Origin: a virus | DNA: 36,660 bases | Virus genome (UHGV): UHGV-0183637 | Reading direction: 5' to 3' (one strand) | Shown: positions 2,517-10,680 of the stretch, in pieces | How positions within the stretch are numbered: the first letter of the stretch is position 1 | How the letters are laid out: each line of letters opens with the position of its first letter | Translations under genes and position numbers: made by a program | The notes under the pieces: model-generated | Database searches by the model: none | Told to the model about the DNA's origin: nothing | What the model saw: only the letters and a program-made list of their open reading frames with translations

Positions 2517-4559
2517 GTGTGGTTTGTAGTGCGGGATTGCCTGGGATTATCCGGTTTTCCATCAGCAGAAAAAAACATCCGGGCACGTCTGGATCGTCTT
2601 GCTGAAAATAACCCGGAATGGAAGCGCAAGCGTGAAGGCACCAAAGCATTCGAGTATCGCATCGACTGCCTGCCCGCTGAAGCGCAGAAAGTTTTACGTA
2701 AGCGCCTGACCCATCAGGTCCTGGAAGATGCACAACTGCCCGCCGTAGTTGAGCAGAAAGCAGTTAAAAACGTCGCCGTTCGCGATGAACTGGAGGTGAT
2801 GGTCAAATGCCCGGAGCTGGCATTACGCGAAGTCCAGTCACTGACCGACAAGCAAAAGGCCATCGCTGATGCGCGGATATTGCTGGCTACTGAAGTGCAT
2901 AAGCTGCGCGAGTATGCCGGAATGACCAGGAAGGCCGCTTTAAAGCACATCGTTGATGGTGTGCGCATGGGGGCGTTACCTGACCGCATTATCGAAGCAG
3001 CGAATACTGCAAATGCACGTCAGGGAAAGCGAACCGGTGTCAGCACCGGCAGCCTGGATAGCTGGTACTCCAGCTGGGTGATGGCGCGCGGTGATGCCAA
3101 TCAGTTACTGGCGTTACTGGCTCCCGGTCATCATAAGGGAACACCGTGGGAGCAGGTCTGGTGGTTGAGCGATTTCTTTATGTTCTATCGCTCATGGAAG
3201 CGCCCGACCGTTGAATACGCGTATCGCGAGTTTTCAGCCTGGTGGCATGAAAAACACGCGAATGATGCGGGAATGCTGGCGGCACTGCCTTCAGTTCACG
3301 CAGTAAGACGGGTGTTAAGCAGCGTCCCGGTGATTGTTAAAGAGCGTTTCCGCTCCACCGGTTCAGCCTGGCGTTCGCTCAATCCCTTTGTGCGGCGCGA
3401 CTGGACATCGCTACCGGTTAATGCGGTATGGGTCGGAGATGGTCACTGTATGAAAATGACCGCGTTTAACCCCCTGACCGGCAATATTTTCCGGCCAGAA
3501 GTGACGCTGGTTATGGATGCGGGGCAGCGTTTTGTTGTGGGATGGTCACTGTCCCTGTCGGAGAACGTGATAGCTGTTGCTGATGCGTTGCGTTACGGCA
3601 TGGCGCAGCACGGGATACCGCTGATTTATTACTCCGATAACGGGGGCGGTGAAAAAAACCGGGTTCTTGATGCCGATATTACCGGGATTCTCCCCCGGCT
3701 GGGTGTGGAACATCACACGGGGATACCAGGTAACCCGCAGGGGCGCGGGGTGATTGAAAGGCTTAACAAGGAAATTCCCCGGGATGTGGCCCTGAGTTTC
3801 CAGACGTACTGCTCAAAGGGAGCAGACAAGGAAACCGTAATGATGCAGCAACGGATTATGCAGTCAGCCATTAAGGCCACCCACAAAGGGAAAGAACTGA
3901 CAAAACGGCAGGTTAAGGCGAGGGATGAAGTCCCCACCTTTGAGCAACTGATGGCAGCCATAGAACTGGAGGTCAGACGCTATAACAACCGGCCACACAG
4001 CAGCCTTCCCCGCAAAGAGGATGGCGAATATTACAGCCCGGCAGCGTATCGCCGGAAACTGATAAAAGAGCAGAATGTTGAAATTGATTTCCTGTCGCCG
4101 GAAGAACTGCATGAAATGTTCAGACCGGAAGTGACGCGCAAAACATTTCGCGGGGAAATTCAGTTATTCAACAATATTTATTACTCGTATGAGCTGGCCG
4201 CAGAGCACGGGAATGAAGTCAGGGTCAGTTACGATATTCATGATGCAAACAGCGTCATTGTCCGGCGGGCTGATGGCTCTTATATCTGCGATGCCATCTG
4301 GAACGGTAACAAGGTTGATGCCTTCGCTAAACCAGTTATCGAGCAAAAACTGGAGAAACGCGTCAGAGGCCGCATTGCACGGGCCGCGCAGAAAATCGAA
4401 GAGGCTAAACGCGAGCTTACCCCGGCTATTACGCAGAAGCCTGAGTTTAATCTGGGATATGGACTGGAACGCCAGGAGAAAAAGGAAAAAGAAGAACTTT
4501 ATTTATTCGCATCTGAACGCGAGCGCAATTTAAAGAAAAACGGCACAAACAACCGTTAA
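2517..4559 (+). CDS. Mu-type DDE transposase (MuA-like)
   Basis: 680 aa, GTG start after an AAGGTGGA RBS. N-terminus M-WFVVRDCLGLSGFP parallels MuA MELWVSPKECANLPGLP (enhancer/operator-binding domain). Central region WVGDGH...LVMDAGQRFVVGW...YYSDNGG is consistent with a Mu-family DDE core. Confidence 0.9.
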   Translation: MWFVVRDCLGLSGFPSAEKNIRARLDRLAENNPEWKRKREGTKAFEYRIDCLPAEAQKVLRKRLTHQVLEDAQLPAVVEQKAVKNVAVRDELEVMVKCPELALREVQSLTDKQKAIADARILLATEVHKLREYAGMTRKAALKHIVDGVRMGALPDRIIEAANTANARQGKRTGVSTGSLDSWYSSWVMARGDANQLLALLAPGHHKGTPWEQVWWLSDFFMFYRSWKRPTVEYAYREFSAWWHEKHANDAGMLAALPSVHAVRRVLSSVPVIVKERFRSTGSAWRSLNPFVRRDWTSLPVNAVWVGDGHCMKMTAFNPLTGNIFRPEVTLVMDAGQRFVVGWSLSLSENVIAVADALRYGMAQHGIPLIYYSDNGGGEKNRVLDADITGILPRLGVEHHTGIPGNPQGRGVIERLNKEIPRDVALSFQTYCSKGADKETVMMQQRIMQSAIKATHKGKELTKRQVKARDEVPTFEQLMAAIELEVRRYNNRPHSSLPRKEDGEYYSPAAYRRKLIKEQNVEIDFLSPEELHEMFRPEVTRKTFRGEIQLFNNIYYSYELAAEHGNEVRVSYDIHDANSVIVRRADGSYICDAIWNGNKVDAFAKPVIEQKLEKRVRGRIARAAQKIEEAKRELTPAITQKPEFNLGYGLERQEKKEKEELYLFASERERNLKKNGTNNR

Positions 4560-4577: not shown

Positions 4578-5471
4578 ATGAGTTTAATTACGCAATTAAA
4601 TGACGTAATGGCCCGTCGCGGCTATACGCAAACCCACGTCGCCCGTGCTATTGGTCGTAGCAGCGCCGTTATCAACCAGTATTTACAGGGTAAATATCAG
4701 GGCGATATGGCTGATATTGAAGAACGCATTTCTGCCTTTGTGACCCGTGAGCGGGAAAAGGAAAACAGCCGCCGTATTAAAGCGAAATTTGTTGCCACCG
4801 GTATGGCTGCCAAAGGACTGGAGGTGTTGGCCTATGCTCACCTGGAATGTGAAATCTGCGTACTGTATGGCGCGGCAGGTCTTGGCAAAACAATGATTCT
4901 GCGTGAATACGCCGCCAGAAACCGGGATGCGGTCCTGATTGAAGCCGACCCGGGCTATACAGCCAGAACACTGCTTGAGGAGTTGTGCCGCCAGCTGGGG
5001 GTAAAGGTTCGCGGCAACATTCACGAACTGATAGATGCCTGTGTGCGCGAACTGCGTGATTCCGGTCGCCTGCTGATGGTGGACGAGGCTGAACTGCTCC
5101 CCTATCGCGCACTGGAGGTTCTGCGTCGTCTGCATGACAAAGCGGGTATCGGGGTTGTCCTGGCGGGTATGCCTCGTCTTCTGATTAACCTTAAGGGGCG
5201 TCGTGGTGAGTTCGCCCAGTTATACAGCCGTGTGGCGCTGGCGCTTAACCTGGGCGATACGTTGTCGCAGGAAGATTTTAACCAGATAGCTACCGGGTTG
5301 ATGCCGGAAGCAGCAGAACCGGAAATCAGCGAGGCGCTTTACGCACGCTCGCTGGGTAATGCCCGCCGCCTCTTCAAACTGGCGCGCGGTGTGTACCGGA
5401 TTTGTGATATCAGCGATGCACCGGTCAGTGTGCAGGCCATTGATAAATTCGCAGAAATGTTAATTCACTGA
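4578..5471 (+). CDS. Transposition ATPase / target DNA activator (MuB-like AAA+)
   Basis: 297 aa. N-terminal HTH-like segment (GYTQTHVARAIGRSSAVINQY), Walker A GAAGLGKT, Walker B LLMVDEAE. Immediately downstream of the transposase gene. Confidence 0.85.
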   Translation: MSLITQLNDVMARRGYTQTHVARAIGRSSAVINQYLQGKYQGDMADIEERISAFVTREREKENSRRIKAKFVATGMAAKGLEVLAYAHLECEICVLYGAAGLGKTMILREYAARNRDAVLIEADPGYTARTLLEELCRQLGVKVRGNIHELIDACVRELRDSGRLLMVDEAELLPYRALEVLRRLHDKAGIGVVLAGMPRLLINLKGRRGEFAQLYSRVALALNLGDTLSQEDFNQIATGLMPEAAEPEISEALYARSLGNARRLFKLARGVYRICDISDAPVSVQAIDKFAEMLIH

Positions 5472-6152: not shown

Positions 6153-6797
6153 ATGACGACTGAAAATAAAGTTAAGCAATATACAAAAAATAAAGTGCAG
6201 GAAGGCTACTGGGTTGATGCCCGTGGTGTGATGACGCCTGAAAGTCTTATCAAAGATATTGACCGCGACCGTGAGCAGTTGGTCGGTGAGCTTGTGGAGA
6301 TGGTGATTGCTGCCTCCGCCTCACTGCGTGAACTGAAACTGCGTGCGTTTGGTGATATTCAGGCATTTATTGACCTGTCAGCGGAGAAATACGGCGCTGT
6401 GAAAGGCGGTAAAAAAGGGAATATCACGCTTTACAGCTTTGACGGGCGTTACAAGATTCAGCGCGCCATGCAGGACCGTATTGCGCTTGATGAACGCATT
6501 CAGACCGCGAAGGCACTGATTGATGACTGCCTGGCTGACTGGACGGAAGGTGCACGCCCAGAAATCAAAGCCATCATCAGTGAGGCATTCAGCACGGACA
6601 AGGAAGGCAACATTAACACCGGGCGCGTTCTGGCTCTGCGTCGCCTCGAAATTGAGGACGAACGCTGGAATAACGCCATGACGCTGATTGGTGAAGCCGT
6701 CCAGGTAATTGGCAGCAGAAGTTATATCCGCGTGTATGAGCGCGTCGGTGATTCTGCTGAATACCGCGCAATCCCGCTTGATATTGCAGGGGTCTAA
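6153..6797 (+). CDS. Conserved Mu-like early-region protein (possibly DUF3164-like)
   Basis: 214 aa, balanced composition, same strand and position as Mu semi-essential early genes. Family assignment is from memory only and is tentative. Confidence 0.65.
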   Translation: MTTENKVKQYTKNKVQEGYWVDARGVMTPESLIKDIDRDREQLVGELVEMVIAASASLRELKLRAFGDIQAFIDLSAEKYGAVKGGKKGNITLYSFDGRYKIQRAMQDRIALDERIQTAKALIDDCLADWTEGARPEIKAIISEAFSTDKEGNINTGRVLALRRLEIEDERWNNAMTLIGEAVQVIGSRSYIRVYERVGDSAEYRAIPLDIAGV

Positions 6798-6798
6798 C

Positions 6799-7032
6799 AT
6801 GCATCAGGATATCAAAGAGTACAGAGCCGGGAACCGTTGCGCGGCGTATTCGCTGGGCGCGTCCAGAGCAGAACAACGCGGCGATTATGCCGAGGCTGAA
6901 AAGCTGTGGCGTAAGGCAGCGCAAAGTCCATGTAGTACCCTGCGCCGCATCTGGGCGGAACATCGTGCAGAGTTCTGTGCTAATGCTCACCTGAAAGGAT
7001 GGAAGCCGATTCATGAACGCGAAACGCTTTAA
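6799..7032 (+). CDS. Hypothetical small protein
   Basis: ATG at 6799 directly after the stop of the previous gene; MHQDIKEYRAGNRCAAYSLGASRAEQRGDYAEAEKLWRKAAQ... The track ORF 6709..7032 extends upstream through the previous gene in another frame. Confidence 0.5.
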   Translation: MHQDIKEYRAGNRCAAYSLGASRAEQRGDYAEAEKLWRKAAQSPCSTLRRIWAEHRAEFCANAHLKGWKPIHERETL

Positions 7033-7204
7033 TCAGTTATATCCGCCTGGTACTCGTTTCATGCACATTGCACATCAGGCGGTGCGTGGTGGTCGGGTGG
7101 TAAAAACTGTTGCACCGGCCAGAGATTTTAAATGTGGTTGTGTGGTTGAAATTAATGTCGAGCCTTATTTCGTTAAAGTCGAGACACTGAAAGCAGCGCA
7201 TTAA
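7013..7204 (+). CDS. Hypothetical small protein
   Basis: 63 aa; overlaps the previous ORF by 20 nt. Confidence 0.4.
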   Translation: MNAKRFNQLYPPGTRFMHIAHQAVRGGRVVKTVAPARDFKCGCVVEINVEPYFVKVETLKAAH

Positions 7205-7234: not shown

Positions 7235-7267
7235 AGGCGTAAACCCGCCGGGGCTGACTTACGCCTG
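7235..7267 (+). repeat. Conserved intergenic stem-loop H1 (GGCGTAA...TTACGCC) followed by TGAAT
   Basis: CAGGCGTAAacccgccggggctgacTTACGCCTG then TGAATCTGGAG and the start codon. Near-identical copy at 8311, structurally equivalent copy at 7693. Confidence 0.55.
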
Positions 7268-7284
7268 AATCTGGAGAAATGAAA

Positions 7285-7671
7285 ATGAGTGTTACCGTTA
7301 TCAATGAAATGCTCGGGCGTACATTTAAAGAAGTAGTTAAGACTGAAAACGATGAACTTGTTTTTCGTGGTGATTATTCCCGGGGAGTATGGGGAACCGT
7401 GTTTACATTTTTCCACTTTCAGGAAGGCTGCGAAAAAGTCTGGATTGAGGACATCGTCGGAGACCTTGACGACCTGAAAGATGAACCGCTGACAGAGGCT
7501 GAAGTGGTTACCGAAGAATGTGATGTCGGGGAAGGTCATCAGACATGGAGTTTCTTTAAGTTCGGCACATCAAAAGGCTGTGTAGTCGTCAGATGGTGCG
7601 GTGAGAGCGAGGGCTTTTATTCTGAGTGCGTTTCACTGAAGCGGGAATTAACTGACGTCTTCGATTTTTAA
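7285..7671 (+). CDS. Hypothetical protein, AT-rich accessory gene
   Basis: ATG at 7285 (alternative 7279), 8 nt after GGAG; 128 aa; lower GC than the surrounding phage genes; no recognisable family. Confidence 0.6.
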   Translation: MSVTVINEMLGRTFKEVVKTENDELVFRGDYSRGVWGTVFTFFHFQEGCEKVWIEDIVGDLDDLKDEPLTEAEVVTEECDVGEGHQTWSFFKFGTSKGCVVVRWCGESEGFYSECVSLKRELTDVFDF

Positions 7672-7692
7672 CTCTGACTTCGTTTTTTTATG

Positions 7693-7715
7693 GCGCAGGT
7701 AAACAGGTCTGCGCC
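7693..7715 (+). repeat. Conserved intergenic stem-loop H2 (GGCGCAG...CTGCGCC) followed by TGAAT
   Basis: GGCGCAGgtaaacaggtCTGCGCC then TGAATTAAGGGGA and ATG at 7736; stem sequence differs from H1/H3 but pairing is preserved. Confidence 0.5.
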
Positions 7716-7735
7716 TGAATTAAGGGGATTTGTAT

Positions 7736-8281
7736 ATGAAAGATAAAGTCTGGGAATTTATTGTTACTCCTGAAGGTTTTGCTGTCCGTTCATCTGGGAA
7801 GTTAACCAATGTAACGTTATGGGCGTCATCATTGCTGGGCCATCTGGGTGCACCTGGCGATTTTATGTATGTGGTACTTGATGCGCAGATTGCCGGGAAT
7901 GCTATGGCCAGTAAGGGGGCTTATATTCAGGGGGATTTGTTCGCCATGATGGCGAATGACACAGCCGCGCTGTATATCGCCACACGGAACATACTGACAA
8001 GAATATCCATGATGTCTGACTGTAAGGATATGGTAGACCTTGCATACATCCTTGAAGATGATTTGCTCACTATTTCAGGCGTGCAGGAATCCCTCCCGCG
8101 TCAGCTGCGGTTTATTGACCTGATGGAGTCATATAAAGATAAGCCTGATTTTTTTCAGATTCGATTCAGCGGGATGGAACTGCTGGATGAATATTATCCG
8201 CTGGATTCGATTGCCCGTGATGTGAAGGCGTTCGTAAAGTCTGTTGACCGTCATTACCGGAAAGCTGAACGTCGTAGTTAA
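7736..8281 (+). CDS. Hypothetical protein, AT-rich accessory gene
   Basis: ATG at 7736, 7 nt after AAGGGGA (track TTG start 7730); 181 aa; no recognisable family. Confidence 0.6.
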   Translation: MKDKVWEFIVTPEGFAVRSSGKLTNVTLWASSLLGHLGAPGDFMYVVLDAQIAGNAMASKGAYIQGDLFAMMANDTAALYIATRNILTRISMMSDCKDMVDLAYILEDDLLTISGVQESLPRQLRFIDLMESYKDKPDFFQIRFSGMELLDEYYPLDSIARDVKAFVKSVDRHYRKAERRS

Positions 8282-8310
8282 TAAGTCTGTTTTTAATTTT
8301 ATTTGTATAT

Positions 8311-8340
8311 GGCGTAAACCCGCCAGGGCTGGCTTACGCC
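8311..8340 (+). repeat. Conserved intergenic stem-loop H3 (GGCGTAA...TTACGCC) followed by TGAAT
   Basis: GGCGTAAacccgccagggctggcTTACGCC then TGAATCTGAGGAAG; near-identical to H1. Confidence 0.55.
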
Positions 8341-8419
8341 TGAATCTGAGGAAGTTTATTTATGAATATCGCCAAGCAAAAAAAATTCGCCCGCGAAATT
8401 AATCTGACAATCGTTTGTT

Positions 8420-8638
8420 TTAATCGTCTTGCGACCAGTTTTCAATCGACAGCAGATGTTCATCCAGCGCCGCAGCCAGAACGAACTCCCCACGTTCCTG
8501 AAGGCCGTGCTGGAAGTTGCGTAATTCAGAATCCAGGGCGCTGAGGTTCAGACAGCCATTTTCTGAAAGCTGTTTAACCAGAAAGCTCCACGCAGCTTTG
8601 TTAGCAGTAATTGCTGCCGCAATTTCATCATCAATCAT
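8420..8638 (-). CDS. Small acidic protein on the opposite strand (72 aa)
   Basis: Minus-strand ORF with AGGAG RBS about 7 nt upstream and host-like codon usage (CTG, GAA, GCG rich). 13 Asp/Glu versus 4 Lys/Arg, C-terminal ...IENWSQDD. One of only two minus-strand genes inside the prophage. Confidence 0.6.
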   Translation of the reverse strand: MIDDEIAAAITANKAAWSFLVKQLSENGCLNLSALDSELRNFQHGLQERGEFVLAAALDEHLLSIENWSQDD

Positions 8639-8726
8639 TTTTTAACTCCTGATTGGGCATGTTGGGGCAGCGATTATGACAAGTGTCTTGCGGTTATAAG
8701 TTGATCAAAAACAATGAGTTACAACC

Positions 8727-9437
8727 ATGAAAGATAAATACATTGCCAAAATCAAAAAACTGTTACGCCTTGCCAGAGGAACATCAAGCCCGGAAGAAGC
8801 CGCTAACGCTATTGCAAAAGCCCAGGCCTACATGCGCCAGCATGGCATCAGCGAAAACGACGCGGAATTGTTCGACATTCAGGAAGCTGCCAGCGCGGGT
8901 GCGCCGAGTGATGCCAGTACGCCGCCGCGTTATATGCACATCCTGTGTGACCTGGTCTGTAAAGCCTTCGGTGTCGAGTGTTACATCTCCGGCGAATACC
9001 GGGCTTCTGGTTCACTCAAACGTTACGTGCGTTTTTATGGTCCTGACAGCCGCCCGGAGATTGCGGCCTACGCGTTTGATGTGCTTTCCCGTCAGATGAT
9101 GGCTGAACGTAAAAAATATCAGGATAAACACTGCAAACGTTGTGGTCCGTCCACGCGGGTAGCCCGTGGCGACCAGTTCTGCGAAGGCTGGGTCTTTGGT
9201 GCCCGTGATGTCATTGCGGTGTATGACGTCTCCCCGGAAGAAAAAAGCCGCCTTGAGCTTTACAGAAAGAACCTGCACAGCACTAAGGGGTTGCGCGACG
9301 GGGATATGCGCACAGCTAAAGCGTGCCGGGGTGCAGAGTTTGCCGCTACAGCCGGTTTTATCGCCGGGAAAAACGCCAGGCTGCATCAGGGGGTTAATGG
9401 TCAGAGCAACAGACCGCTGGCACTGGGGAGGGTGTAA
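8727..9437 (+). CDS. DUF2786-like phage protein
   Basis: 236 aa; N-terminus KIKKLLRLARGTSSPEEAANAIAKAQAYMRQHGI resembles the conserved N-terminal helix of DUF2786-family phage proteins (from memory). Confidence 0.65.
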   Translation: MKDKYIAKIKKLLRLARGTSSPEEAANAIAKAQAYMRQHGISENDAELFDIQEAASAGAPSDASTPPRYMHILCDLVCKAFGVECYISGEYRASGSLKRYVRFYGPDSRPEIAAYAFDVLSRQMMAERKKYQDKHCKRCGPSTRVARGDQFCEGWVFGARDVIAVYDVSPEEKSRLELYRKNLHSTKGLRDGDMRTAKACRGAEFAATAGFIAGKNARLHQGVNGQSNRPLALGRV

Positions 9438-9439
9438 CG

Positions 9440-9667
9440 ATGGCTTTTAAACTTCTCAGTGTTACCGAAGCAATATACCAGCCGCCCGGAGAACGCCACG
9501 AATACAGGATGAATGACGGTAGCGCGGTGGTTGAGTTCCCCGGATATCCGGGGGCTTCCCGGTGGCGGTTCTATGACAGTGCGGGACGCCGGATTATTAA
9601 AAGAACCGTGCACAACGCCATGAAAGCCGCTGTAGAACGTCACAAAAGAAGGTTTAACTGCAAATGA
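9440..9667 (+). CDS. Hypothetical small protein
   Basis: 75 aa; GGGAGGG RBS upstream; first of four tightly coupled small ORFs. Confidence 0.55.
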   Translation: MAFKLLSVTEAIYQPPGERHEYRMNDGSAVVEFPGYPGASRWRFYDSAGRRIIKRTVHNAMKAAVERHKRRFNCK

Positions 9668-10269: not shown

Positions 10270-10680
10270 GTGAAGAAAATGATTTTTGTGGCGGCATTGC
10301 TGACCATTACCCAACAGGCGCAGGCTTCAGCAGTTATTGTGGCATCTACTGCTGCGACCACTGCTGCCGCAGCTGCTGCGAACTCTGCGAATATCGCAAA
10401 CCAACAGGCACAGCGTGCTGCTAATGCATCAGCCAGTGCTCTCCCGATTTCTGTTAAGGACAGTAAGCAAAATCTGGGGTTCATAACGTGCGGTAAGCGT
10501 TCTTCTGAAGCTGTAGGCTCACTGGGATGTACGGTATATGGCGACAGTGAGAGCAGAGAAATTCCATGGAAAACGTGGCCCGGATACGTTCTTGGCTCGA
10601 AGCTCCCGGCCAGTTATGAGGTAAACGCTGTGTCGTTTGACCACTATAACGGTGTGGCAACTGTCTATTTCACATACTGA
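10270..10680 (+). CDS. Secreted alanine-rich protein (signal peptide)
   Basis: N-terminus MKKMIFVAALLTITQQAQA then ASAV...; low-complexity Ala/Thr/Asn stretch; C-terminal half has two Cys. Confidence 0.6.
   Translation: MKKMIFVAALLTITQQAQASAVIVASTAATTAAAAAANSANIANQQAQRAANASASALPISVKDSKQNLGFITCGKRSSEAVGSLGCTVYGDSESREIPWKTWPGYVLGSKLPASYEVNAVSFDHYNGVATVYFTY

What the first reader, a model, noticed from the sequence alone, without database searches (positions are those of the whole stretch)
8362..8638. Convergent acidic 72-aa protein gene opposing the early operon
A well-formed minus-strand gene (AGGAG RBS, host-like codon usage) encodes a strongly acidic small protein (net charge about -9) and lies antisense within the rightward early region. 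A short + strand ORF with its own stem-loop and RBS (ATG 8362) runs into its 3' end. Small acidic phage proteins are often DNA mimics or anti-defence or stress-response modulators; the convergent overlap also allows antisense regulation.
Basis: partly seen in the sequence, partly recalled or inferred. Interest (0 to 1): 0.6.

Follow-up and report, generated by a model that had tools for sequence, protein, structure and literature searches.

The report
Antisense accessory gene in Mu-like prophage
A real but dispensable gene for a 72-residue acidic protein is read against the early operon of a Mu-like E. coli prophage and overlaps tail-to-tail with a short conserved early gene; it belongs to a small uncharacterised family whose function is still unknown.

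Summary
Minus-strand ORF 8420-8638 encodes 72 aa with net charge -9 and has an AGGAG ribosome-binding site. It is a genuine gene. About 15 homologue clusters of 72-77 aa exist in Escherichia, Salmonella, Serratia and Trabulsiella. Substitutions follow its codon phase, and AlphaFold2 gives a confident three-helix bundle (pLDDT 88).

The plus-strand ORF at 8362 is also real at its 5' end: the ribosome-binding site, ATG and first ~27 codons are conserved with codon periodicity. Its tail simply runs into the antisense gene until a chance stop.

The two ORFs form one optional ~390-nt cassette. It sits between a conserved hairpin, which acts as a module boundary in these Mu-like early operons, and a DUF2786/DUF7168 gene. 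Related phages join the hairpin directly to DUF2786.

Of 43 complete E. coli genomes carrying this segment, 35 have a 169-bp deletion that removes the promoter region, ribosome-binding site and first 26 codons. The gene is therefore dispensable.

No family, fold or defence library gives a function. Acidity is not conserved (-2 to -9), so a DNA-mimic reading is unsupported.

Best reading: a moron-like accessory gene, probably expressed from the repressed prophage and silenced by convergent early transcription. It is a new small family of a known kind, of modest interest.

The parts
8420..8638 (-). Gene for a 72-aa acidic protein (net -9) predicted to fold as a three-helix bundle. Identical to RefSeq WP_000564495.1.
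   Evidence: ORF and translation. Homologues of 72-77 aa. Codon-phase entropy 0.94/0.62/1.30 and dN/dS below 1. Best of six frames by codon usage. AF2 pLDDT 88.4.
8646..8650 (-). Shine-Dalgarno AGGAG, 7 nt upstream of the ATG.
   Evidence: Read from the sequence. A purine-rich SD sits at the same place in all homologous loci.
8673..8681 (-). Extended -10-like element TGTCATAAT, the candidate promoter of the acidic gene. It would give a ~27-nt 5' UTR.
   Evidence: Pattern match. A -10-like hexamer (CATAAT, TAGAAT, GATAAT or AATAAT) lies at the aligned position in 7 loci. The two-hexamer consensus scan called no promoter here, so this is inferred, not shown.
8701..8708 (.). TTGATCAA palindrome holding the invariant GATCA of the divergent intergenic region. 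Candidate operator or Dam site, about -42 to -35 relative to the putative -10.
   Evidence: GATCA is invariant in 7 aligned intergenic regions that are otherwise 57% identical. L010 and L011 have a second GATC 11 nt away.
8362..8544 (+). Short rightward ORF of 60 aa. The first ~27 codons (8362-8442) are conserved and coding-like. The remainder is an unconstrained tail read through the antisense gene.
   Evidence: Conserved RBS and ATG in E. coli, Salmonella and Serratia loci. Entropy 0.97/0.58/1.19 over codons 2-17, permutation p = 1e-4. Codon score +0.33 for the first 27 codons and -0.58 for the tail. Length as expected by chance. Called as a 60-aa hypothetical protein in deletion-lineage genomes.
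8348..8352 (+). GAGGA ribosome-binding site of the short rightward ORF, 9 nt before the ATG at 8362.
   Evidence: Read from the sequence. Conserved in other loci.
8311..8340 (.). Hairpin copy 2 (GGCGTAAACCCGCCAGGGCTGGCTTACGCC). Boundary element upstream of the cassette.
   Evidence: RNA fold is -19.7 kcal/mol (z = -4.05) on the minus strand and -15.1 (z = -0.43) on the plus strand. The same hairpin precedes unrelated genes in other Mu-like contigs.
7236..7265 (.). Hairpin copy 1, downstream of the 63-aa gene phrog_5591. Together with copy 2 it brackets the DUF7448 and phrog_7741 genes.
   Evidence: Exact 14-mer match. Alignment of the two copies with E2348/69, which has a single copy and lacks the two bracketed genes.
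8560..8728 (.). 169-bp segment missing in the common deletion lineage. It holds acidic-gene codons 1-26, the SD, the promoter-like element, the GATC motif and the DUF2786 RBS. CCAT microhomology lies at both ends.
   Evidence: Alignment with strain C5. 35 of 43 genomes cover only query positions 1-140 or 1-134. Offset from the short-ORF ATG to the DUF2786 ATG is 196 nt instead of 365 nt.
8727..9437 (+). DUF2786/DUF7168 early gene (phrog_421), the conserved divergent neighbour of the acidic gene.
   Evidence: Pfam and PHROG hits. Same neighbour in Serratia, Salmonella and metagenomic Mu-like loci.

Best explanation
Positions 8341-8726 are an optional, moron-like accessory cassette in the early region of a Mu-like prophage. 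It sits between a conserved hairpin that punctuates these early operons and the DUF2786/DUF7168 gene.

The cassette has two convergent genes whose 3' ends overlap:
- a short rightward ORF translated as part of the early operon, of which only the first ~27 codons are under selection;
- a leftward gene with its own ribosome-binding site and promoter-like extended -10, encoding a soluble cytoplasmic three-helix-bundle protein.

Shown here: both are real coding sequences; the cassette is an indel among related phages; the leftward gene is dispensable; and the leftward gene can exist alone in unrelated contexts.

Inferred: the leftward gene faces the strong early promoter and shares the orientation of the repressor gene. 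It is therefore most likely expressed from the repressed prophage. On induction it would be shut off by convergent early transcription through polymerase collision and sense/antisense RNA pairing across at least 219 nt.

The protein has no catalytic-looking conserved residues; its invariant positions are helix-packing positions. It therefore most likely acts by binding another protein, of the host or of an incoming phage, to the benefit of the lysogen.
For: The leftward gene is real:
- homologues in four genera;
- codon-phase entropy and dN/dS;
- codon usage;
- AF2 pLDDT 88.4 and pTM 0.72.

The position is conserved. The gene lies antisense and divergent from DUF2786 in Serratia (L003, L014), Salmonella (L004, L005) and metagenomic Mu-like loci (L010, L011).

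The cassette is optional:
- the hairpin is followed directly by DUF2786 in L019 and L118, and by other genes in L037, L047, L095, L099 and L101;
- there is no tblastn hit in 50,697 phage records or in plasmids.

The gene is dispensable: the 169-bp deletion is present in 35 of 43 genomes.

The gene is autonomous. The Serratia odorifera-type subfamily stands alone among IS elements, and only the coding sequence plus ~25 nt upstream is conserved.

Other moron-like traits:
- its own SD, and a positionally conserved -10-like element;
- GC 48.9% against 53.7% for the window.

The rightward ORF is real at its 5' end only.
Against: - No expression data of any kind were available, so timing (lysogen or lytic) is pure inference.
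- The consensus sigma-70 scan found no promoter in 7600-9400. The -35 region is poor.
- No canonical intrinsic terminator follows the gene. The hairpin lacks a U tract and is shared with phages that lack the gene.
- Conservation of the same position over 33-64% protein identity suggests an old, integrated component rather than a recently acquired moron.
- No partner, fold relative or phenotype is known, so 'binds a protein' is a default inference for a small helical bundle.
Confidence: 0.55

Rival explanations
1. The acidic protein would be a DNA mimic or other anti-defence protein that blocks a host DNA-binding defence such as restriction, RecBCD or CRISPR.
For: The protein is small, cytoplasmic and strongly acidic in the Mu-like group (-5 to -9). 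It lies in the semi-essential early region, where Mu keeps accessory functions such as Gam (established knowledge). No alternative function is assigned.
Against: - Acidity is not a family trait: members range down to -2, and no acidic residue is invariant.
- An anti-defence gene needed on infection would be expected to lie with the early transcript, not against it.
- It has been lost in 35 of 43 genomes.
Confidence: 0.1
2. The main function would lie at the RNA or transcription level. Leftward transcription from the cassette would act as a roadblock or antisense attenuator that limits read-through of leaky early transcripts into DUF2786...GemA/Mor in the lysogen. Conversely it would be silenced on induction. 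The protein would be secondary. The closest analogy is lambda OOP RNA acting against cII.
For: - The convergent 3' overlap is conserved in all Mu-like loci.
- The boundary hairpin is much more stable in the leftward RNA (z = -4.05) than in the rightward RNA (z = -0.43).
- The cassette lies upstream of the middle-gene activator Mor.
- The short ORF's tail is unconstrained, as expected if only the act of translation or transcription matters.
Against: - The protein sequence itself is under purifying selection and folds confidently.
- The gene survives alone, without any early operon, in the Serratia odorifera-type loci.
- Phages without the cassette and the deletion lineage do well.
Confidence: 0.15
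3. The acidic protein would be a dedicated partner of a cassette-linked or neighbouring early protein, acting as an inhibitor or antidote. The partner would be either the basic N-terminal peptide of the short rightward ORF or the DUF2786/DUF7168 protein.
For: - It is always adjacent to and divergent from DUF2786/DUF7168 in Mu-like loci.
- It always co-occurs with the short ORF in one cassette.
- The charges are opposite: about +4 for the ORF's N-terminal 27 aa against -9 for the protein (read from the sequence).
Against: - DUF2786 occurs widely without it, in B3-like Pseudomonas phages, Ralstonia and Shewanella phages, L019 and L118.
- The deletion lineage keeps both DUF2786 and the short ORF but lacks the acidic gene.
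- The stand-alone subfamily has neither partner.
Confidence: 0.12
4. The minus ORF would not be a gene. Instead it would be an antisense shadow of a real rightward early gene, the 60-aa ORF.
For: All other early genes run rightward. Some annotations call the 60-aa plus ORF a gene.
Against: - In the overlap, variation follows the minus frame: plus-frame entropy is 0.88/1.12/0.63.
- The minus frame has the best codon score, and the plus tail scores -0.58.
- The most conserved minus-frame residues (8-24) lie outside the plus ORF.
- The plus ORF's length equals chance expectation.
- The AF2 model is confident.
Confidence: 0.03

Closest known systems
Phage 'morons' (autonomous accessory transcription units between conserved phage genes, as defined for lambdoid phages by Hendrix and colleagues; cited from my own knowledge)
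   Same: It is present in some phages and absent in otherwise related ones. It has its own SD and a promoter-like element. Its GC is lower than the surrounding prophage. It is dispensable. It was probably inserted at a module boundary.
   Different: It is oriented against the early operon and overlapped by a translated early ORF. It has no clear terminator of its own. It is kept at the same site across four genera at 33-64% protein identity, so it is not a recent pick-up.
Lambda OOP antisense RNA / cII 3' overlap, and 3'-overlapping convergent pairs such as Bacillus txpA/RatA (own knowledge)
   Same: A leftward transcript converges on and overlaps the 3' end of a rightward early ORF in a temperate phage. 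That gives scope for RNase III-type or collision-based control.
   Different: Here the leftward transcript encodes a conserved folded protein. The rightward ORF's overlapped part is unconstrained. No RNA-level regulation has been shown. The rightward peptide is not a hydrophobic type I toxin.
Small acidic DNA-mimic proteins (T7 Ocr and Gp5.9, ArdA, Neisseria DMP19; own knowledge)
   Same: It is small, cytoplasmic and strongly acidic in this window (-9, pI 4.3) and is phage-borne.
   Different: There is no sequence or fold match. Acidity is not conserved in the family. The conserved residues are core residues, not surface carboxylates.
YmgB/AriR (PDB 2oxl), a small three-helix regulator of E. 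coli
   Different: It is not among the top 60 hits with the better model. There is no Pfam hit. The resemblance is generic to helical bundles.
Accessory genes of the semi-essential early region of Mu (kil, gam and others; own knowledge)
   Same: It occupies the same genomic neighbourhood between transposase B and GemA/Mor. It is non-essential and variable between Mu-like phages.
   Different: Those genes are co-directional with the early operon and expressed from the early promoter. This one is antisense. It is absent from Mu, D108 and every isolated phage record searched.

Membership tests
Phage moron (autonomous accessory unit) | Present or absent polymorphism between otherwise related phage genomes | tested here: met
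   The hairpin is joined directly to DUF2786 in L019 and L118, and to other genes in five further contigs. The 169-bp deletion occurs in 35 of 43 genomes.
Phage moron (autonomous accessory unit) | Own promoter | tested here: inconclusive
   TGTCATAAT lies at 8673-8681, and a -10-like hexamer is positionally conserved in 7 loci. The consensus two-hexamer scan found no promoter.
Phage moron (autonomous accessory unit) | Own transcription terminator | tested here: inconclusive
   No terminator was called. The downstream hairpin is stable on the leftward RNA, but it lacks a U tract and also occurs in phages without the gene.
Phage moron (autonomous accessory unit) | Expression from the repressed prophage | not testable with these tools
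   This needs strand-specific RNA-seq or Ribo-seq of a lysogen.
DNA-mimic proteins (Ocr / ArdA / Gp5.9 type) | Conserved dense negative surface charge | tested here: not met
   Family net charge is -2 to -9. No acidic column is invariant.
DNA-mimic proteins (Ocr / ArdA / Gp5.9 type) | Sequence or structural similarity to a known mimic | tested here: not met
DNA-mimic proteins (Ocr / ArdA / Gp5.9 type) | Binds and inhibits a DNA-binding enzyme | not testable with these tools
   Biochemistry is required.
YmgB/AriR family (Pfam YmgB) | Match to the family profile | tested here: not met
   No Pfam hit for the window protein or for five homologues. hhalign probability is 0.13%.
Known anti-phage defence proteins (PADLOC) | Match to a defence-system model | tested here: not met
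   No PADLOC hit at E <= 1.
Toxin-antitoxin-like pair with DUF2786/DUF7168 or with the short ORF | Obligate co-occurrence of the two partners | tested here: not met
   DUF2786 and the short ORF persist without the acidic gene. The acidic gene persists without either.

The most novel reading that the evidence does not exclude
The cassette would be a previously unrecognised control module of Mu-like phages. A convergent, 3'-overlapping gene pair would use leftward transcription and its acidic protein to hold the distal early operon (DUF2786...GemA/Mor) or a host or competitor function in check during lysogeny. Early transcription would flip the module off at induction. Alternatively, the protein would found a new family of prophage-encoded inhibitors (anti-defence or superinfection exclusion) with no relative in current libraries.
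Probability: 0.12. Interest if true: 0.6.

Novelty: new member of a known kind. Interest (0 to 1): 0.33.

Why it matters
It adds a small, confidently folded protein family with about 15 clusters, confined to Enterobacterales. The family is missing from Pfam, PHROGs, NCBIfam and PADLOC. One member sits in the prophage of the reference EPEC strain E2348/69, so it can be tested directly.

Nature has also supplied the control. A widespread sister lineage carries a clean 169-bp knockout of the promoter and N-terminus. Comparing the two alleles would show whether the gene affects lysogen stability, induction or resistance to other phages.

The conserved hairpin that marks module boundaries in these early operons, and the tail-to-tail overlap with a translated early ORF, are useful examples of how accessory genes are slotted into transposable-phage genomes. 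If the gene proves to have no phenotype, the result is an ordinary accessory ORFan.

Tried and rejected
1. Family libraries. Pfam, PHROGs, NCBIfam and PADLOC gave no hit for either ORF.

2. Rfam on 7500-9500 gave nothing.

5. PDB sequence and profile search. The best hit was a designed retroaldolase at E = 0.0011, judged spurious.

6. Toxin-immunity idea for the Serratia odorifera-type copies, which lie downstream of large proteins. The two large proteins are unrelated and the flanks are not conserved.

7. Idea that the short ORF's N-terminus duplicates the DUF2786 N-terminus. hhalign probability was 0.2%.

8. Idea that the hairpin is the acidic gene's own terminator or the short ORF's own element. 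It occurs twice in the window and precedes unrelated genes elsewhere.

9. Idea that the length of the plus ORF is selected. It was rejected by synonymous recoding.

10. Scan of GTDB species-representative genomes for the family found no relative.

11. Literature searches (DUF2786; WP_000564495; E2348/69 with Mu-like; Mu-like prophage early region) returned nothing relevant.

12. Substitution counts within the close E. coli variants were too few to test selection.

Full report
**What is there.** The window is a Mu-like prophage of E. coli.
- The repressor-type HTH gene is on the minus strand (1429-2055).
- The rightward early operon holds ner, transposase A (2517-4559), the B ATPase (4578-5471), DUF3164 (6153-6797), an ANR regulator, a 63-aa gene (7013-7204), DUF7448 (7279-7671), phrog_7741 (7730-8281), DUF2786/DUF7168 (8727-9437) and further small genes, then GemA and Mor. 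Lysis and structural genes follow.
- The finding lies between phrog_7741 and DUF2786.
- On the minus strand, 8638->8420 encodes 72 aa with net charge -9 and pI 4.28. AGGAG lies 7 nt upstream of the ATG.
- On the plus strand, a 30-nt hairpin (8311-8340) is followed by GAGGA and an ATG at 8362. That ATG opens a 60-codon ORF ending at 8544, 125 nt inside the minus gene.

**The minus-strand ORF is a real gene.**
- RefSeq annotates the identical protein (WP_000564495.1) in STEC346 and in EPEC E2348/69, where it is E2348C_RS14150.
- A word-indexed search of 5.8 billion proteins found only near-identical copies and fragments.
- An exhaustive HMMER scan and a profile search then recovered about 15 clusters of 72-77 aa from Salmonella, Serratia fonticola, S. 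odorifera, Trabulsiella and metagenomes. They are 29-64% identical to the window protein, apart from a near-identical E. coli cluster (94%).
- Nine DNA homologues, codon-aligned, give position entropies of 0.94/0.62/1.30. dN/dS ranges from 0.009 to 0.54 in every pair where dS is computable.
- Scored with the codon usage of this prophage's long genes, the acidic frame is the best of six at +0.37 bits/codon, higher than most neighbouring early genes.
- AlphaFold2 with the 16-sequence alignment gives pLDDT 88.4 and pTM 0.72. Helices span residues 2-12 and 14-26 (one long kinked helix), 32-48 and 52-71, forming a three-helix bundle. The single-sequence model scored 71.6.
- The invariant residues (A8, A9, I10, A12, N13, A16, W17, L20, L24, A55) lie on packing faces of the helices.

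**The plus-strand ORF is real only at its 5' end.**
- In E. coli, Salmonella, Serratia and metagenomic loci, the same hairpin is followed by an RBS and an ATG. The ORF that opens there has a first ~27 residues that align, with consensus M-x-x-R-S-x-x-x-h-x-R-E-I-x-R-T-I-x-x-Y-x-R-L.
- Over codons 2-17, which lie outside the acidic coding sequence in every locus, entropy is 0.97/0.58/1.19. Column-label permutation gives p = 1e-4.
- Beyond codon ~28 the pattern inverts to 0.88/1.12/0.63, meaning it follows the minus gene's phase.
- Codon score is +0.33 for the first 27 codons and -0.58 for the tail.
- Synonymous recoding of the acidic gene yields plus ORFs as long as those observed in 22-83% of trials. 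The tail is therefore read-through to a chance stop.
- The arrangement is a conserved convergent pair with overlapping 3' ends, but only one partner is constrained in the overlap.

**The two ORFs form an optional cassette.**
- The hairpin is not private to the ORF. An exact second copy lies at 7236-7265, just after the 63-aa gene. The two copies bracket DUF7448 and phrog_7741, which E2348/69 lacks.
- In IMG/VR Mu-like contigs the same hairpin, with the same AT-rich leader, is followed by different genes after 8-20 nt. In L019 and L118 it is followed directly by DUF2786.
- The hairpin is thus a boundary element of these early operons. The ~390 nt from the short ORF's RBS to the DUF2786 RBS is an insertion relative to those phages.
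- The hairpin folds much better as leftward RNA (-19.7 kcal/mol, z = -4.05) than as rightward RNA (-15.1, z = -0.43). It has no U tract in either direction and was not called a terminator.

**Distribution and dispensability.**
- Of 5,426 complete E. coli genomes, 58 carry the 1.8-kb neighbourhood and 43 carry the cassette segment.
- Only 8 of the 43 have it full-length. Four of these are E2348/69 or O127:H6 assemblies.
- The other 35 share one 169-bp deletion (window 8560-8728) with CCAT microhomology at both ends. It removes codons 1-26, the SD, the promoter-like region and the intergenic spacer.
- In that lineage the short ORF stays open at 60 aa and ends 13 nt before the DUF2786 ATG. Gene callers annotate it as a hypothetical protein.
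- No isolated phage among 50,697 records and no PLSDB plasmid encodes the acidic protein.
- A diverged subfamily (P0016-P0019; S. odorifera and metagenomes) sits alone among IS elements. Only the coding sequence and ~25 nt upstream are conserved between loci, the flanking large proteins are unrelated, and there is no hairpin and no DUF2786.
- The gene is therefore autonomous and non-essential.

**Regulatory reading of the 88-nt divergent spacer (8639-8726).**
- The consensus scan found no sigma-70 promoter.
- Read directly, TGTCATAAT (8681-8673, minus strand) is an extended -10-like element 35 nt before the ATG. It is one of 11 such one-mismatch matches in the whole window.
- A -10-like hexamer occupies the aligned position in all seven loci compared.
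- Further upstream, GATCA is invariant (TTGATCAA at 8701-8708). L010 and L011 have a second GATC 11 nt away. This could be an operator or a Dam-sensitive site. I could not test it.

**Function.**
- Nothing in Pfam, PHROGs, NCBIfam, PADLOC or Rfam matches.
- Net charge across the family is -2 to -9, so acidity, the basis of the DNA-mimic idea, is not the conserved property.
- The neighbour DUF2786/DUF7168 is widespread in Mu-like phages of Pseudomonas (B3 group), Ralstonia and Shewanella without this gene. It has no literature.

**Most likely mechanism.** The gene is a moron-like accessory unit. It faces the early promoter and shares the repressor's orientation. I infer that it is transcribed in the lysogen from its own weak constitutive promoter and is silenced at induction when early transcription runs through it on the other strand. 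The short rightward ORF is translated on that early transcript. The protein is a compact helical bundle without catalytic-type conserved residues, so it most likely acts by binding a partner. I put about 0.55 on this overall picture. The anatomy is well supported; the expression timing and mode of action are inferred.

**Rivals.**
- RNA-level attenuator of read-through to Mor: 0.15.
- Dedicated partner of the short ORF peptide or of DUF2786: 0.12. The deletion lineage and the stand-alone copies argue against it.
- DNA mimic or anti-defence: 0.10.
- Not a gene: 0.03.

**Verdict.** This is a new small protein family of a familiar kind, a dispensable prophage accessory gene, in an unusual but conserved tail-to-tail overlap. 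It has a ready-made natural knockout for testing. Interest is modest.

Noticed in passing
window 7236-7265 and 8311-8340: Two copies of a 30-nt GC-rich hairpin (GGCGTAAACCCGCC...CTTACGCC). Each is preceded by an AT-rich TTAATT...ATTTAAA stretch and followed by an RBS and ATG. They bracket the DUF7448 and phrog_7741 genes, which E2348/69 lacks. The same element precedes unrelated genes in other Mu-like contigs, so it looks like a module-boundary or recombination element. It folds much better on the leftward RNA. It is absent from isolated phage records.
   Followed up: partly
window 8560-8728: A single 169-bp deletion with CCAT microhomology defines a widespread sister lineage of this prophage. 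It is found in 35 of 43 E. coli genomes, from chicken, cattle, mouse and human sources. It places the short ORF's stop 13 nt before the DUF2786 ATG, which suggests translational coupling.
   Followed up: yes
window 8701-8708; L010 and L011 intergenic regions: GATCA is invariant in the divergent spacer (TTGATCAA in the window). Two loci have a second GATC one helical turn away. This could be a Dam-sensitive or operator site.
   Followed up: no
L010 3730-3909 (minus strand); equivalent position in L011: An extra 59-aa Cys-rich ORF (CPCC...CHFC, zinc-ribbon-like) lies between the acidic gene and DUF2786 in two metagenomic Mu-like loci. It was not called by the gene caller.
   Followed up: no
window 10270-10680 (+): A 136-aa early-region protein (phrog_8805) has a signal-peptide-like N-terminus (MKKMIFVAALLTITQQAQA) and an Ala-rich low-complexity stretch. 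A probable secreted or envelope protein is unusual in a Mu-like early operon.
   Followed up: no
window 8378-8399 (minus-strand reading): Just after the acidic gene's stop, the leftward RNA reads UUCG-CGGG-CGAA followed by U8. This is a weak terminator-like site specific to the E. coli version. On the plus strand it encodes the KQKKFARE residues of the short ORF.
   Followed up: partly
L001 (STEC346) 1-2425: In STEC346 the related prophage is inserted in a PAAR-domain gene downstream of vgrG in a type VI secretion cluster, leaving that gene a pseudogene.
   Followed up: no
L003 3049-3576, L014 467-991, L004 3261-3671: Other leftward (antisense) genes of 136-175 aa sit near GemA/Mor in the Serratia and Salmonella relatives. 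Antisense accessory genes seem to recur in this phage group.
   Followed up: no
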